In this document: one piece after another, positions 1 to 6,000 of the stretch
Numbering within the stretch: the first letter of the stretch is position 1
How the letters are laid out: the number at the start of each line of letters is the position of its first letter
Assembly (NCBI GenBank): GCA_963514005.1
Contig: OY740786.1
Location: 21,080,001 to 21,144,000, forward strand
Source: Raja brachyura
Lineage: Eukaryota
Direction of reading: 5' to 3'
Length of the DNA stretch: 64,000 nt
Made by a program: the position numbers

Positions 1-3000
1 GGTTGGCTCAAGTGTAACGGGAGAGGAACTTGGTAAGTCGGGAGAGCACCTTGGAACATCGCATAAAGAACATGCCCGTGGGAACTCGGTTAAACACTTG
101 ACCATAAACTTTGAATCTCGTGCATAACCACGAGTCCGTTTTTTTTCTTTCACTTGGGGTCACTCTTGGGTGGACTCGCACTGTGAGACAGGGCCTTTAC
201 TCAACTCTTAAAATAAATTAAAGTTCAAATCTGCTTCCACTTTAGGGTAGCTGTCTAGTTCTTGCCTTTTTTAAAGAGCAAAATTCTTCATCCAATTAAC
301 AATCCTTTCCTGATTTCTCACTTTTCCTGCTTCAGATGGTCAATATTTCCCTGGGCTTCTTATTCTTGTCTCTCATTTACATTTCCGCTTCACTTTATCT
401 CCAGCACAATGACTTTGGCCACATTTGTAGTATTGCATGCAGCTCTGGTCACCCCATTACACTTAGATGTGGAGGCTTTCAAGAGGGGGCAGAGGTTTAC
501 CAGAATGCTGCCTAGATGAGAGGGCTTCAGAAACAGGCAGAGGTTGGAAAGACTTGGATTGCTTTATTTGGAATGCCGGAGGTTGTGGAAAGACTTGATA
601 AAAGTATAGAAAAGATTCTGAGAGGCAAAGATAGGGCAGACAGCGAGAACCTTTTTCCCCCCAGGGTGGAAGTGTCGAACATTAGAGAGCATAGTTATAC
701 AGTGAGGGAAATGTTTAATGGAAATATGCACAGCAAGTCGAACAAGGGGAGGACCTACACAGTAAATGGTAGGCCTGTGGGTAGTGTTGTAGAGCAGAGG
801 GATCTAGGAGTGCAGGTGCACGGTTCCTTGAAGGTCGAGTCGCAGGTAGATAAGGAGGTCAAAAAGGTTTTTGGCACTTTGGCCAACAGTCAGAGTATTG
901 TGTATAGAAGTTGGAAGGTCAACACGTGTAAGGGGAAAAGATTTAATAGGAATCCGAGGGGTAACGTTTCCATACAAAGGGTGGTGGGTGTACAGAACAA
1001 GCTGCCAGAGGAGGTAGTTGAGGCTGGGACTATCCCATCGTTTAAGAAACAGTTAGACATGGTACATGGATAGGAGAGGTTTGGAGGGATATGGACCGGC
1101 AATCGCAGGCAAGTGGGACTAGTGTAACTGGGACATTGTTGGCGGCGTGGACGAGTTGGTCCGAAGGGCTGGTTTCCACACTGTATGACTCAATTACTTT
1201 ATGTATAGTCAGGTGAAATCAGTTTAAGTAGGCGTCATTTTTAGCACAAACATTGCGGGTTGAAGGGCCCGTGCCTATGATGTACTATTCAATGTAGATT
1301 TCATAAAGTTATTGCTTTGAAAGAGTCAGGACGGTGAATCAACATGCTGGAGTGATGCTGACTCATCCTGGTATCACACACTTCTAGTCAAGGTGTCAAA
1401 TCATGGCTTTGCAACCATACTTGTGCCCGAGTCAGAAAGTTTGGGATTCCAGCTCTCTCCGGAGACCTGCAGCTAAGTCCAGGCCAACATTCTAATGCAG
1501 TACTGTCAGAGTTCCTGCTTAAAGCCCTGTCTCACGGTGAGAGTCCACCCACGAGTGATCCCGAGTGAAAGAAAAAAATTCAAACTTATGGTTGTCTACG
1601 AGATTCCAAGTTTATGTTCGCGAGTTTAAACGAGTTCCCACGTGTATGTCTAAGTTTGCCGTTTACTTCTCATTTCTGCCATGTACCAAGTTCCTCTCCC
1701 GAGTTACCAAGTTCCTCTCCCGAGTTACTCTTGAGCCAACAACGACTACCGACGTGTGGAAAAATCATCACATGGATAAAAATTATGTCATGCAGTTTTT
1801 TTAAACTATTAAAAGCCTCCCATGACCATGGACAGAACTGCCCCGATGATCAGCTTCTCCGTGTCTCTTATGTAGCTGCATGCTTCTCTTTTCATGTAAT
1901 TACCCGCTGTGTGCTTGCAAACAAAAAAAAACAGGTTTAACCTTTTATCAAATCGTTGCCTATAATTGCTGCAATGCAATAAATGGCATTTAAAGTACTT
2001 GGCTGTTAAAAAAAGCACAAAACGTTAAGGTGTTTAAGAAACGGACTGCAGGGAGAACTTCAAAGCTTTTGTAAATTGATTAAATTCAGGTAGAAGTTGA
2101 ACTCAAGATTTAAATCCCCTGAAAGTTAGGTTTCTTAACACAGGATAGATGTTCTGCCAGAACGGAGTTGCTGAATAAAATCGTCTCCCGTTTTCCTCCG
2201 TTTCTTGCATGACCTCGGCTTGCCAGCTTTATTTCACACTCCGTGATCTGTGTAATGTATATGTGTAAAATAATAAACTGACCAAGAAGGTCCAGTGTTC
2301 TACCCTGTTAGTTTAGTTTAGTGATACAGAGCAGAAAGGTCCTTCGGACCACCAAGTCCGCGCCGACCAGCAATCCCCGCACACTAACACCATCCTACAC
2401 CCACTATGGACATTTTTACATTCACCAAGCCAATTAACCTACAAACCTGTACATCGAGTGTGGGTTGATCTCGGAGAAAACCCACTCAGGTCACAGAGAT
2501 AATTTACTCAGTACAGAAAGCACCCGTAGTTGGGATCGAACCCGGGTCTCCGACGCTGCATTCGCTGTCAGGCAGCAACTTTACCGCTGCACCACCGTGA
2601 ATGAAGGCCTGTTTTAAGTATCAAATAGAGGAGCAAGAGGGTGATCAAGGCGGAGAAAGTGTAGAGGCCAATGCCCAGGTAGTCCAACTCGCAGGTCCAC
2701 CATGATGACGATGCCGTGGCCGCGGTGGGCTTTGGGGGAGGTGCAGGTGACATCTGAGCAGGCGAGGGATGTAGACCGTGGTCTGATTGATCCACCACAC
2801 AAACCATCTGGCGTCGCAGGTGCAGAGAAAGTGGTTGCCACTTAGGCGCAGCTCCCGAAGGTGTTTGATGGCGCTGTCCAGGAAACTGGAGGCCTGGGTG
2901 GTCTTCAGGTTGTTGTAGCTGAGATCCAGGTACTGCAGGGAGGTCACGTCCTGCAGGAGGTCCTTGGTCAGCTTGGAGATCTGGTTGCGGGTGCGGTTGA

Positions 3001-6000
3001 AGACACGCAGGGTCTGGGTGCAGTTGGACAGCATGCGAGGCAACGTGGTCAACAGGTTGCTACCGAGGTCCAGCAGCTCCAACCAGCCTAGCAGGTAAAG
3101 CCTGCCCCAGTTGAAGCTCCACAGCTGGTTACCGCTCAGCACAAGCTCCTTGAGTAGCGGGGGCAGGTGGTCAAACACGTTGTGCGGCATGAACGCAAAT
3201 TTCTTCCCCTAATAATCCGCTGCTCTCTGTGTTCGAGAGCGAAAACTTGCAAAGGGCACGCACGGTTCCTCGCCAGCGAAGATGGACACAGAATGCTGGA
3301 GTAACTCAGCGGGACAGGCAGCATCTCTGGTGAGAAGGAATGGGTGACGTTTCGGGTCGAGACCCATTATTCTCTCCAGAGATACGGCAACAGCACAGCA
3401 CAAAACCAGTCTGAAGAAGGGTCTCGACCCGAAACGTCACCAATTCCTTTTCTCCAGAGATGCTGTCTGCCCCGCTGAGTTACTCCAGCATTTTGTGTCT
3501 ATAGCCCATGGCTTATAATGTCACCTCACATTGTAAAATCATTATCTGAAGAAATGTCGCCTCGCTGGCTCAAACATAATCTATGTCTTTCTGCTTCATG
3601 TGCGTGGGAATTCCCCCAGTATGGTCACTTTTCACGCGTCCCGCCTGGTGTTAACCCTTCCCATCAATGCTTGACCCCCATCTTCGCTCTGTACCTTCAG
3701 CTTCATCCGCGGCTCTCTCCCATCGAAAGTACCCAAGTTAATTTCAGACCCCCTATCCATTCATTTATCTTCCATTAAGATCAGACTAATCTTCAACATT
3801 TCACTTCTGGCACTCAGGCCAAACCCACAGTAGAATCAAGTCACTACGGTAAACTCAAGTGCCACTACGTTCTTACAACGAGTTTAAATGTTTCAAATTT
3901 TAACTTCAAGAGTAAATCTTGAAGTTAATGTGGAAATGTGGAAATCTTTACACATGTTTACATTTTTTCAAGAGTTAACAAGTTTCCCGGGTACCTGCCA
4001 TTAGCGCCACGGGTCGCTAAGTTGCGTCCACGAGTTTCGACGTTCCCGCTACGTTAATTGTACGTGATTACCATGAGTTTAATTTGTTTTAAACTCGGGG
4101 TCACTCGTGGGTCGACTCGCACCGTGAGACAGGGGTTTTACAGTTAGAACAATGGATCTCATGGCCACTGTTTCCAAAAGGAGAGTGAAATTATTCAGTC
4201 TCCTGGTCTATTTTTATCCAACAAAACACCAGCAAATAAAGCTAATCAGTCATTATCTCATTATGTAAACAAACGGATTGCAAAACTTTCCACATTGCAG
4301 CAAGACCACCATTCAAAAGGTCCTTTACCAGATACAAGACATCTAAGTGACCTTGACATTGTGAAATTCCAATGCAAGAATTGTCAGTGCTAGAAATCTG
4401 AAATCAAAATTTAAAATGCAGCTTCAGCTGCTGAGTGTTTCAAACAATTTCTGTTTTTATTATTGAAATTTAAGTTTTCTGTATCACACAACAGAGCATT
4501 GAGGTTATCAGTCTCCATACAATGCTTACACAATACAACAAAATTAAATAAAAACATTTAACAGGACAAGGCTTGGAAAATGCATTTGTTTTTTTCTGGG
4601 GAGAAATAGACAAGGAGATGTTTTATCCTCCAATTCTCACTTCCATAGCCAAGGCCAATGCTCAATCCTTCCAGGACTCACGTTAATCAAGATGGAAACT
4701 ATCATGTGTCACCAAAATTCACTAAATATCCTAATTTACAAAAAAAATGACAATTGCTGGAGTAACTTAGCAGGTCAGGGAGCATCACTACAGAATATGG
4801 ATAGGTGACATTTCGGGTTGGAACCGTTCGTCAGAATGATTGAAGGGGAGTGCTGTGTCTGCGATGGAAAATACCTGTGAATGTGTGTCTGGGATGAGGT
4901 ACATGTGGATGGAGTAGGTTTGGGATAGGTGGTAGCGAGGGAGAGATGTGCCTAGGGGTGGGGATGGGTTATCTGGGTTGGGGATGGTGGTGTCTGGATG
5001 GGTGGTACCTTGGTCTGGAGGTGGGATACTCCTGGGTGTGGGGTGGGGAGGATTAAGGCGGGGTGTGCCCCGGGCCGGGGAAGAAACTGGGTTAGAGGTG
5101 ATGGTATCTAGATGGGAGCTATATGGGGTCGATGGCGGGGTTGAGGATTGTCTGGGTGTGGGGGTGGTGGTGTGTCTGGTATAGGTAGTGTCTAGGGAGA
5201 GGGGAGGGTTGTCTGGGTGATGGTCTATCTGGGAGATGGGAGGTGCCTGGCGTGGGGGGCTTGAGGGGAGGTCGGGTTCGGGAAGAGCCCCGCTCACTCA
5301 CCCGCTGCACCGAGCCCGGCACCAGCCGCTCCAGCAGCCGGCAGAGTGCCACCCCATCCCGGAGCACGGCCCGCAGGAAGGCCTCGGGGTCCGACACGCT
5401 CTTCTTGGGGGACTCGAGTACCCCGAGGCTGATGAGCCAGGTCACCGTCTGCTCGGCCGAGCTCATGGCGGCCGCGGGCCGGGCGCTGGCTGCTGGCTGC
5501 CGGCTCCCCGAGCCACAGCTTCTGCTTCACAGTGTCGCTCACTGGGTCTGGTCGCGCCGGAGCTACTCCGGGCTGCCCAGCATGGCAGACGGAGCGTCGG
5601 CCGAGCGCACTGCTTATCCCCGATCCTCGCTGCTTCGACAGCCCATCGCTGCTGACGCCCCCTAGCGCCGTCCGCTCCGCATGCCCAGCCCCCTCACCGC
5701 AGACCCCGCCCCCTCACCGCAGACCCCGCCCCCTCACCAACGACCCCGCCCCCTCACCGCAGACCCCGCCCCTCACCGCAGACCCCGCCCCATCACCGCA
5801 GACCTCGCCCCCATCGAAGACCCCGCCCCTCACCGCAGACCCCGCCCCCTCACCGCAGACCCCGCCCCCTAACCGCAGACCACGCCCCTAACCGCAGACC
5901 ACGCCCCCTCATCGCAGACCCCGCCCCATCACCGCAGACCTCGCCCCCATCGAAGACCCCGCCCCTCACCGCAGACCCCGCCCCCTCACCGCAGACCCCG

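What the first reader, a model, noticed from the sequence alone, without database searches (positions are those of the whole stretch)
1522..4137. TLR7 fragment carried inside a Harbinger transposon (candidate 'Pack-Harbinger' immune-gene capture)
Seen: matching TIRs at 1522 and 4137 with a TTA duplication. An old Deu-SINE is split at these ends (1390-1521 and 4141-4380), which independently supports a single insertion unit. Inside lies about 580 bp of TLR7 ectodomain/TM coding sequence with two frameshifts, no N-terminus and no TIR domain. Known: Pack-MULE/Pack-type elements capture host gene fragments, but this is rarely described for vertebrate Harbingers. Inference: the element captured and moved an innate-immune receptor fragment into ARHGEF7 intron 1, in the sense orientation. 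A second right end of the same family lies at 1-196.
Basis: partly seen in the sequence, partly recalled or inferred. Interest (0 to 1): 0.8.

Follow-up and report, generated by a model that had tools for sequence, protein, structure and literature searches.

The report
Skate transposon carrying a TLR7 fragment
A small cut-and-paste transposon in an intron of a skate's ARHGEF7 gene holds a decayed piece of the virus sensor TLR7 joined to two other repeats, and the same composite is annotated as a short "TLR7" protein in the little skate.

Summary
The core observation holds. Window 1522-4137 is bounded by 55-nt inverted repeats (86% complementary) and by TTA on both sides. It holds about 590 bp (2628-3217, minus strand) that is TLR7, not TLR8 or TLR9. 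It matches residues 654-852 of skate TLR7, with two frameshifts and one stop, no N-terminus and no TIR domain. It lies in ARHGEF7 intron 1, in the sense orientation. The window is from a skate, not human.

- **The fragment is not a bare capture.** It is the middle of a composite: palindromic short repeat, linker, TLR7 piece, filler, tRNA-derived SINE.
- **The composite exists elsewhere.** The 249-aa RefSeq protein "toll-like receptor 7 [Leucoraja erinacea]" is collinear with it end to end. Its start codon lies in the repeat and its stop in the SINE. So the composite formed once, in a skate ancestor, and exists in at least two copies or lineages.
- **What stayed untested.** No eukaryote genome collection was on hand. 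I could not test whether the transposon moved the composite (Pack-type) or received it after insertion. The Harbinger assignment rests on the 3-bp TTA duplications and the inverted repeats only. The split "Deu-SINE" could not be verified.

Verdict: partly supported; a new member of a known kind (animal Pack-TIR).

The parts
1..196 (-). Second, truncated copy of the same TIR family, cut by the window start. It is the inverted counterpart of the element's left end. TTA follows at 197-199.
   Evidence: (83.9% over 199 aligned nt, K2P 0.18).
1390..1518 (+). Not verified.
   Evidence: No other copy in the window. No Rfam or tRNA hit. Resemblance to a SINE rests on recall only.
1519..1521 (.). Left target-site duplication, TTA.
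1522..1576 (+). Left terminal inverted repeat.
   Evidence: pair I5: 56 nt, 86%.
1522..1740 (+). Left terminal and subterminal family sequence, shared with copy 1-196. It includes a perfect 21-bp tandem duplication at 1684-1725.
   Evidence: D4, I3, I4, I6, I9.
1741..2307 (.). Interior of unknown origin. No repeat in the window, no protein match.
2308..2599 (-). tRNA-derived SINE with its head at 2599 and its (CTAAA)n-like tail at 2308. Same orientation as the TLR7 piece and 3' of it.
   Evidence: copies at 57692-57974, 61047-61333, 6437-6644, 56017-56165, 21953-22064; alignment.
2600..2627 (-). 28-nt filler between the end of TLR7 homology and the SINE head. Also present in the Leucoraja protein (..LILKTGLHS..).
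2628..3217 (-). TLR7 fragment covering residues 654-852 of the 1047-aa A. radiata TLR7: the last LRRs, the LRRCT and the start of the TM. It reads in three frames, with breaks near 2757 and 2694 and a TAG at 3209-3211.
3218..3271 (-). Linker without clear homology. Conserved in the Leucoraja protein (ASFRSRTQ..).
3272..3510 (.). Palindromic short repeat: two 84-nt arms (3282-3365 and 3419-3502, 92% complementary) with a 53-nt loop. Single arms are dispersed through the window. The start codon of the Leucoraja ORF maps to 3322-3324 in the proximal arm.
   Evidence: I1. The outer limits 3272 and 3510 were read by eye.
3511..4069 (.). Interior of unknown origin.
4083..4137 (-). Right terminal inverted repeat. 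Similarity to the left end runs about 72 nt (4070-4138).
4138..4140 (.). Right target-site duplication, TTA.
4141..4380 (+). Not verified.
   Evidence: no other copy; recall only.
5302..5466 (-). ARHGEF7 exon 1 (start of the CH domain). It places the element in intron 1, in the sense orientation.
   Evidence: (CH domain), (PDB 2l3g, E 4.5e-24).

Best explanation
A 2,616-bp non-autonomous cut-and-paste transposon of Harbinger type inserted once into a TTA site in intron 1 of a skate's ARHGEF7. The type is assigned from its 3-bp TTA duplications and its roughly 55-bp terminal inverted repeats.

Its interior encodes no transposase. It carries a composite block: palindromic short repeat, 54-nt linker, 590 bp of TLR7 coding DNA, 28-nt filler, tRNA-SINE. 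The TLR7 piece covers the last LRRs, the LRRCT and the first part of the membrane anchor.

The block was assembled once, in a skate ancestor after the split from the Rhinoraja lineage. Here it is a neutrally decaying pseudogene piece.

My preferred reading is that the block was taken into the element by DNA-level template switching or gap repair, and then travelled with the element to this site on another chromosome than TLR7. That makes it a Pack-TIR element.

Shown: the anatomy, the TLR7 identity, the single origin of the composite, and its presence in a second record.
Inferred: that the acquisition preceded the transposition, and that the element is a Harbinger.
For: - **Bounded unit.** TIR pair of 56 nt at 86%. 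The repeat core occurs 3 times with 0 expected. TTA abuts 3 of 3 family ends, while TTA occurs at 0.021 of window positions. The interior has no transposase or any other Pfam domain. I scanned 114 window ORFs of 85 aa or more, plus 16 of the 44 ORFs of 40 aa or more in 1400-4300 and 3 more.
- **TLR7 identity.** PDB TLR7 4.7e-45 against TLR8 4.2e-24. The nine best of 167 hits are elasmobranch TLR7s, with A. radiata best. Read through both breaks, the fragment is 87% identical to A. radiata TLR7.
- **Same composite elsewhere.** P0121 (L. erinacea, 249 aa) aligns to window 3324->2571 over residues 1-249, including the repeat-derived N-terminus and the filler- and SINE-derived C-terminus. It was the only hit among 93 candidates of near length.
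- **One origin.** The window fragment and P0121 form a clade (96/92) beside A. radiata TLR7, inside skates. They share N->K, P->L and A->T at columns invariant in 9 elasmobranch TLR7s.
- **Distance from the parent gene.** TLR7 and ANKRD10 (the next gene here) lie on contigs of different length in A. radiata (60.9 vs 104.9 Mb), Rhinoraja (54.9 vs 78.5) and Pristis (120.5 vs 88.4). P0121's contig is 45.8 Mb, unlike the ANKRD10 contigs. This hints that it is not at this locus.
- **Literature.** A preprint reports 'additional pseudogenized copies' of TLR7 in Rajiformes (10.64898/2026.03.23.713620, passages). In animals, multicopy Pack-TIRs were always distal to their parents, while single-copy gap-filled ones showed a bias to lie near them (PMC8277862, passages). 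Harbinger transduplication has an animal precedent, Turmoil-1 (PMC2572040, passages).
Against: - No second TIR-bounded copy carrying the block was seen, and no family member lacking it. The only other family copy (1-196) is cut off after 196 nt.
- P0121 may simply be the orthologous locus in another skate. The window's species is unresolved. ANKRD10 exons are 91-100% identical to A. radiata and 88-100% to Rhinoraja.
- The chromosome-size argument is weak.
- Tan et al. conclude that most animal single-copy Pack-TIRs arise without transposition, by gap filling in resident elements.
- The TLR7 piece is bounded within 28 and 54 nt by two other repeats. The SINE lies 3' of it in the same orientation, as a LINE-mediated template-switch chimera would.
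- A 13-nt imperfect direct repeat (2264-2276 / 3532-3544) brackets the whole block. Only 1.7% of 300 control places scored as well. This would fit a later insertion of the block into a resident element.
- The family ends differ by K2P 0.18. From the 85% protein identity of the two composite copies I infer about 7% DNA divergence. So the family may be older than the composite.
- With a TTA/TAA target preference, matching TTA on both sides is only about a 1-in-2 event for two independent elements.
Confidence: 0.45

Rival explanations
1. Resident element, later filling. The Harbinger-like element inserted first. The TLR7-bearing composite was then copied into it at this locus by double-strand-break gap repair, independently of transposition, and never moved. 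The Leucoraja record is the orthologous locus, or the donor.
For: Tan et al. find this to be the main route for single-copy Pack-TIRs in animals (PMC8277862, passages). Only one other copy of the composite is known, and its location is unknown. Family ends are more diverged (K2P 0.18) than my estimate for the two composite copies.
Against: Gap-filled Pack-TIRs show a bias to lie near their parental copies (56.9% within 15 kb). In three batoids, TLR7 and ANKRD10 lie on contigs of different length. P0121's contig (45.8 Mb) does not resemble the ANKRD10-bearing contigs (78.5-104.9 Mb).
Confidence: 0.28
2. Retro-chimera nested in the element. A LINE reverse transcriptase copied a SINE RNA, switched template at its 5' end to a TLR7 mRNA, and then to a repeat-bearing RNA. 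The chimeric cDNA integrated into a resident DNA transposon, so the position inside the TIRs is a coincidence of nesting.
For: The SINE and the TLR7 piece have the same orientation, with the SINE on the 3' side and nearly full length at its 5' end. TLR7 homology stops 28 nt from the SINE head. A candidate 13-nt direct repeat flanks the block (3 overlapping 12-mers with 10 or more of 12 matches; 1.7% of 300 control places did as well).
Against: The candidate repeat lies about 30 nt beyond the SINE tail, not against it. It is AT-rich, and I tested three regions, so it may be chance. A 28-nt filler and a 54-nt linker separate the parts. TLR7's coding region is in one exon (general knowledge), so the lack of introns says nothing. 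A retro-chimera cannot easily spread, so a second non-orthologous copy would need another mechanism.
Confidence: 0.15
3. Two independent elements. The left end (1522-) and the right end (-4137) belong to two separately inserted MITEs. The DNA between them, TLR7 piece included, is ordinary intron content.
For: Beyond about 72 nt the two ends are unrelated. The only other family copy matches the left end only. Matching TTA is weak evidence given the family's TTA preference.
Against: The two ends face each other in the correct orientation and are the only such pair in 64 kb. Asymmetric subterminal regions are normal for Harbinger-type elements, whose ITRs are 25-50 bp (PMC2572040). CpG observed/expected is 0.5-1.2 in the parts of the unit, against 0.38 and 0.09 in the flanks. 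By my recall, the flanks read as adjacent parts of one SINE.
Confidence: 0.05

Closest known systems
Pack-TIR elements of animals (Tan et al. 2021, PMC8277862); Pack-MULE / Pack-TYPE elements of plants
   Same: A non-autonomous TIR transposon whose interior holds a fragment of a host gene and no transposase. The fragment is short, non-functional here and lies in an intron of another gene.
   Different: In the main text, the 370 animal cases are mostly hAT (208) and TcMariner (115), and the word Harbinger does not occur. Here the captured piece is about 590 bp, against a median of 224 bp. It is itself fused to two other repeats, and mobilisation is not shown.
Turmoil-1, a PIF/Harbinger element of C. 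elegans with transduplicated coding fragments (PMC2572040)
   Same: A Harbinger-type element of an animal that has taken up pieces of host protein-coding genes.
   Different: Turmoil-1 is autonomous (5 kb, with a transposase) and carries the fragments in its 760-bp ITRs. The skate element is non-autonomous, with the fragment in the middle, and is in a vertebrate.
Tourist-like MITEs / non-autonomous PIF/Harbinger elements (mPing type; PMC2836001)
   Same: 3-bp TTA/TAA target-site duplication, short TIRs, no coding capacity.
   Different: It is 2.6 kb, far larger than a MITE, and most of the interior is foreign or unknown. No autonomous partner was identified.
LINE-mediated template-switch chimeric retrocopies (recalled from the literature on bipartite chimeric retrogenes; no paper read here)
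   Same: A piece of cellular mRNA joined at its 3' side to the 5' end of a retroelement in the same orientation.
   Different: The parts are separated by filler. No clean duplication abuts the SINE tail.
Extra pseudogenised TLR7 copies of Rajiformes (bioRxiv 10.64898/2026.03.23.713620)
   Same: Very likely the same objects: non-functional extra TLR7 copies specific to skates.
   Different: The main text does not link them to transposons ('transpos' occurs 0 times). Numbers and locations are in a supplementary figure that I could not see.

Membership tests
PIF/Harbinger superfamily (non-autonomous member) | 3-bp target-site duplication, usually TTA or TAA | tested here: met
   TTA lies at 1519-1521 and 4138-4140, and at 197-199 beside the second copy, so 3 of 3 ends. 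The rule comes from PMC2836001 and PMC2572040.
PIF/Harbinger superfamily (non-autonomous member) | Terminal inverted repeats of about 25-50 bp | tested here: met
   56-nt arms at 86%. Similarity fades after about 72 nt.
PIF/Harbinger superfamily (non-autonomous member) | An autonomous partner with the same termini that encodes a DDE (IS5-like) transposase and a Myb/SANT/MADF-type DNA-binding protein | not testable with these tools
   None was found among 114 window ORFs of 85 aa or more, nor among 19 of the 44 ORFs of 40 aa or more overlapping 1400-4300. The partner would lie elsewhere in the genome, and no eukaryote genome collection was on hand.
PIF/Harbinger superfamily (non-autonomous member) | Termini similar to a catalogued Harbinger family (Repbase/Dfam) | not testable with these tools
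   No transposon library was available.
Pack-TIR / Pack-type transposon | Host gene fragment between the TIRs of a DNA transposon, with no transposase | tested here: met
Pack-TIR / Pack-type transposon | A parental gene elsewhere that is not itself flanked by the element | tested here: inconclusive
   Full-length TLR7 exists in related skates (A. radiata, 87% over the fragment). In them it lies on another contig than ANKRD10. The parent in this genome could not be inspected.
Pack-TIR / Pack-type transposon | Mobilisation: several copies with the same internal junctions but different flanks and TSDs | tested here: inconclusive
   One further copy with the same junctions was found (P0121). Its flanks and locus are unknown. 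No other protein covers residues 1-249.
TLR7 (functional gene) | Closest to TLR7 rather than TLR8 or TLR9 | tested here: met
TLR7 (functional gene) | Complete architecture: signal peptide, 26-LRR ectodomain, TM, cytoplasmic TIR domain, open frame | tested here: not met
   Only residues 654-852 are present, with two frameshifts and one stop. There is no TIR domain or further LRRs in the element.
LINE-mediated chimeric retrocopy | Retroelement at the 3' side, cellular RNA piece at the 5' side, same orientation, junction at the retroelement's 5' end | tested here: inconclusive
   Orientation and order fit. However, a 28-nt filler intervenes, and about 7 nt of the SINE head differ from other copies.
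LINE-mediated chimeric retrocopy | Target-site duplication flanking the whole chimera and abutting the 3' tail | tested here: not met
   The only candidate repeat (2264-2276 / 3532-3544) lies about 30 nt from the tail.
Deu-SINE (flanks 1390-1521 and 4141-4380) | Conserved Deu-domain core, contiguous across the insertion point | not testable with these tools
   No other copy in the window. No hit in Rfam or ARAGORN. No SINE consensus was obtainable from a tool.

The most novel reading that the evidence does not exclude
The transposon-assembled composite has given rise to a real gene in the little skate. It would encode a 249-aa, membrane-anchored, TIR-less stump of TLR7 (last LRRs, LRRCT and TM). 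Its start codon is donated by a palindromic repeat and its stop by a SINE. It would be kept under constraint as a decoy or partner of full-length TLR7. The ARHGEF7-intron copy in this window would be its decayed, transposon-borne sibling.

Pointers:
- The Leucoraja ORF is unbroken over 249 codons. The window copy has one stop and three frame changes relative to it.
- The Leucoraja changes avoid columns that are invariant in nine elasmobranch TLR7s (6 of 90 against 21 of 105, Fisher p = 0.007). The window copy's changes do not (10 of 90 against 15 of 104, p = 0.53).

Gene conversion by the real TLR7, or chance, would explain the same numbers.
Probability: 0.1. Interest if true: 0.75.

Novelty: new member of a known kind. 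Interest (0 to 1): 0.42.

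Why it matters
- **It may explain a reported oddity.** Skates, unlike other elasmobranchs, are reported to have extra pseudogenised TLR7 copies. Here such a copy sits inside a mobile element.
- **It flags an annotation problem.** A RefSeq protein named "toll-like receptor 7" in the little skate is a chimera of repeat, TLR7 and SINE. That matters for counts of immune-gene repertoires.
- **It could extend a known mechanism.** If the element moved the fragment, this would be a vertebrate Harbinger-type Pack-TIR carrying innate-immune coding sequence. 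That would add a superfamily and a gene class to a mechanism documented mainly for hAT and Tc/mariner elements in animals.

The window copy itself is a decaying fragment, so no function is expected of it.

Tried and rejected
- **Other copies in the window.** Self-BLAST of 1-5000 against the window found none for the TLR7 piece, the unassigned interior or the flanks. It found only the SINE, the short palindromic repeat and the family end at 1-197.
- **Sensitive search for the flanking SINE halves.** nhmmer, and blastn with word size 7, gave only self hits.
- **RNA searches.** Rfam on 1-5000 gave two sub-threshold microRNA-like matches only. ARAGORN on 1200-4500 gave nothing.
- **SINE insertion duplication.** No 12-mer with 10 or more matches links the tail flank to the sequence beside the SINE head or beside the TLR7 5' end.
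- **Species identification.**
  - ANKRD10 exon 1 is 100% identical to a Rhinoraja-named cluster representative and 98% to A. radiata.
  - Exon 2 is 100% identical to A. radiata and 96% to Rhinoraja. Exon 3 is 91% and 88%. The last exon, held only in the A. radiata isoform, is 97.7%.
  - So the window is a skate, but neither of these exactly. Leucoraja could not be compared.
- **Cluster look-up.** A look-up for P0121 and the ANKRD10 clusters was not available.
- **Representative search with P0121.** 8,183 hits at E <= 0.001, but only P0121 itself spans residues 1-249. This gave no information on copy number.
- **Dating.** I considered dating from protein branch lengths. I rejected it as too rough to separate orthology from paralogy.
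- **Literature.** Searches found no paper linking skate TLR copies to transposons.

Full report
**What the window is.** The window is from a skate (Rajiformes), not a human.
- The best full-length matches of the coding piece are elasmobranch TLR7s, led by Amblyraja radiata.
- The neighbouring genes are ARHGEF7 and ANKRD10, arranged head to head.
  - ARHGEF7 exon 1 lies at 5302-5466 on the minus strand (PDB 2l3g, E 4.5e-24).
  - ANKRD10 exon 1 lies at 10875-11066 on the plus strand.
- ANKRD10 exons are 91-100% identical to A. radiata and 88-100% to Rhinoraja longicauda. The species is therefore neither of these exactly and stays unresolved.

**Checking the observation.**
- Inverted repeat arms 1521-1576 and 4083-4138 are 56 nt long and 86% complementary.
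- A 21-nt core of this repeat occurs three times in 64 kb (173-193, 1525-1545, 4114-4134). None was expected in 100 shuffles.
- TTA lies directly outside both ends (1519-1521, 4138-4140). It also follows the end of the truncated second copy (197-199). TTA occupies 2.1% of window positions.
- Three of three ends beside TTA therefore indicates a target preference. That preference, with a 3-bp duplication and ITRs of 25-50 bp, is how Harbinger elements are described (PMC2572040 and PMC2836001, passages).
- The second copy (1-196) is the inverted counterpart of the left end (83.9% over 199 aligned nt, K2P 0.18). It matches the right end only over the last 49-59 nt.
- The claim that the flanks are two halves of one Deu-SINE could not be tested. 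They have no other copy in the window, no Rfam or tRNA match, and I had no SINE library.

**The TLR7 piece.**
- On the minus strand, 3217->2628 matches TLR7. PDB phmmer gives TLR7 4.7e-45 (residues 662-808 of 1049), TLR8 4.2e-24 and TLR9 2.8e-15, among 224 matched sequences.
- tblastn with A. radiata TLR7 (1047 aa) aligns residues 654-852 in three frames. The breaks lie near 2757 and 2694, and there is a TAG at 3209-3211.
- The piece covers the last leucine-rich repeats, the LRRCT and the first part of the membrane anchor.
- Nothing else in 1400-4300 matches TLR7.
- No Pfam domain, transposase or otherwise, was found in the interior. I scanned 16 of the 44 ORFs of 40 aa or more, 3 more, and 114 window ORFs of 85 aa or more.
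- The window copy's changes relative to A. radiata TLR7 hit invariant and variable columns alike (10 of 90 against 15 of 104, p = 0.53). This is as expected for neutral decay.

On the minus strand the TLR7 piece is preceded by a palindromic short repeat and a 54-nt linker. The repeat has arms at 3282-3365 and 3419-3502, 92% complementary, and single arms are scattered through the window. The piece is followed by a 28-nt filler and a tRNA-derived SINE in the same orientation (2599->2308; five other copies in the window).

The search for proteins of similar length returned one hit among 93 candidates: 'toll-like receptor 7 [Leucoraja erinacea]', 249 aa (P0121). It aligns with window 3324->2571 over its whole length.
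- Residues 1-22 are encoded by the palindromic repeat and linker (21 of 22 identical).
- Residues 22-230 are the TLR7 piece.
- The last 19 residues are the filler and the head of the SINE.

Both junctions are therefore shared. In a tree of 13 rows the two form a clade (96/92) next to A. radiata TLR7 and inside the skates. Their end branches are equal (0.084 and 0.082) and the common stem is short (0.029). The rows were the window piece read through with X at the two breaks, P0121, and the 11 best of the 120 listed full-length hits. No row was dropped. The two also share three changes at columns that are invariant in nine elasmobranch TLR7s.

So the composite arose once, after the split from the Rhinoraja lineage, and has since existed as two copies that are 85% identical in protein. 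[quoted passage not shown] It does not mention transposons (10.64898/2026.03.23.713620, passages).

No eukaryote genome collection was on hand. The look-up of cluster members was unavailable.

*In favour:*
- The block lies inside a unit with matching ends and duplications.
- The host locus is on a different chromosome-scale contig than TLR7 in three batoids.
- The Leucoraja protein sits on a 45.8-Mb contig, unlike the 78.5-104.9-Mb contigs that bear ANKRD10 in other batoids. This is only a weak hint that it is a second locus.
- In animals, multicopy Pack-TIRs were always distal to their parents, while the gap-filled single-copy ones showed a bias to lie near them (PMC8277862, passages).

*Against:*
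- The same paper concludes that most animal Pack-TIRs form without transposition.
- The order and orientation of the TLR7 piece and the SINE are what a LINE template-switch chimera would give.
- An imperfect 13-nt direct repeat brackets the whole block (2264-2276 / 3532-3544). Only 1.7% of 300 control places scored as well, but I tested three regions.
- The family ends are more diverged (K2P 0.18) than my rough estimate of about 7% DNA divergence for the two composite copies, inferred from protein identity.

I put the Pack-type reading at 0.45, later filling of a resident element at 0.28, a nested retro-chimera at 0.15 and two independent elements at 0.05.

**Comparison with what is known.**
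- *Animal Pack-TIRs.* Tan et al. (2021) report 370 Pack-TIRs in 100 animal genomes, mostly hAT (208) and TcMariner (115). The word Harbinger does not occur in their main text.
- *Animal Harbinger precedent.* Turmoil-1 of C. elegans is a Harbinger with transduplicated coding pieces (PMC2572040).
- *How this case fits.* It works like a Pack-TIR. Membership in PIF/Harbinger rests on two met criteria, the 3-bp TTA duplication and the ITR length. The decisive criterion, a transposase-bearing partner, is untested.
- *In print.* Searches found no paper that ties skate TLR copies to transposons.

**A loose end worth following.** The Leucoraja ORF is unbroken over 249 codons. Its differences from A. 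radiata TLR7 avoid invariant columns (6 of 90 against 21 of 105, Fisher p = 0.007). Constraint on a truncated, TIR-less TLR7, gene conversion by the real gene, or chance could each explain this.

**Verdict.** The core observation is confirmed. The case is a new member of a known kind, of moderate interest. It has a concrete by-product: a database 'TLR7' of the little skate is a repeat-TLR7-SINE chimera.

Noticed in passing
window 3324-2571 (minus strand), compared with protein P0121: The RefSeq protein 'toll-like receptor 7 [Leucoraja erinacea]' (249 aa) is an ORF of a repeat-TLR7-SINE chimera. Its Met lies in a palindromic repeat and its stop in a SINE head. No full-length L. erinacea TLR7 appeared among the hits.
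   Followed up: partly
protein P0121 against window 2628-3217: The Leucoraja copy's substitutions are depleted at columns invariant in nine elasmobranch TLR7s (6/90 against 21/105, p = 0.007). The window copy's are not (p = 0.53). Several private changes in both copies are R->W or R->H, as CpG decay would give.
   Followed up: partly
window 1684-1725: A perfect 21-bp tandem duplication (TACCAAGTTCCTCTCCCGAGT x2) lies in the left subterminal region of the element. It is single in the other family copy (18-35).
   Followed up: no
window 2264-2276 and 3532-3544: An imperfect 13-nt direct repeat (11 of 13 identical) brackets the SINE, the TLR7 piece and the palindromic repeat. It could be a target duplication of a nested insertion, or chance.
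   Followed up: partly
window 3272-3510; also 4752-4855, 8121-8200, 32840-32923, 58045-58132, 59107-59217 and shorter pieces: A dispersed repeat unit of about 90 nt occurs many times in the window. Inside the element it forms an inverted pair (84-nt arms, 92%, 53-nt loop).
   Followed up: no
window 5302-5466 (-) and 10875-11066 (+): ARHGEF7 exon 1 and ANKRD10 exon 1 lie head to head about 5.4 kb apart, with G+C-rich DNA at each (55% in 4001-6000, 52% in 10001-12000). By my recall these two genes are also neighbours in human.
   Followed up: partly
window 1522-4137 against its flanks: CpG observed/expected is 0.5-1.2 in the parts of the element but 0.38 and 0.09 in the adjoining intron DNA (1200-1521, 4141-4500).
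   Followed up: no
window 62909-63571 (+), 49086-49382 (+), 43037-43351 (-): Other mobile-element remnants: a reverse-transcriptase ORF (RVT_1, E 1.1e-14), an HTH_23 homeodomain-like ORF, and an ALKBH8_N-like match just above its Pfam cut-off (21.1 against 21 bits).
   Followed up: no
window 930-1191 and 23710-23968; 860-920 and 24268-24331: An unclassified repeat just left of the element has a second copy, inverted, at about 23.7-24.3 kb (83% over 264 nt).
   Followed up: no
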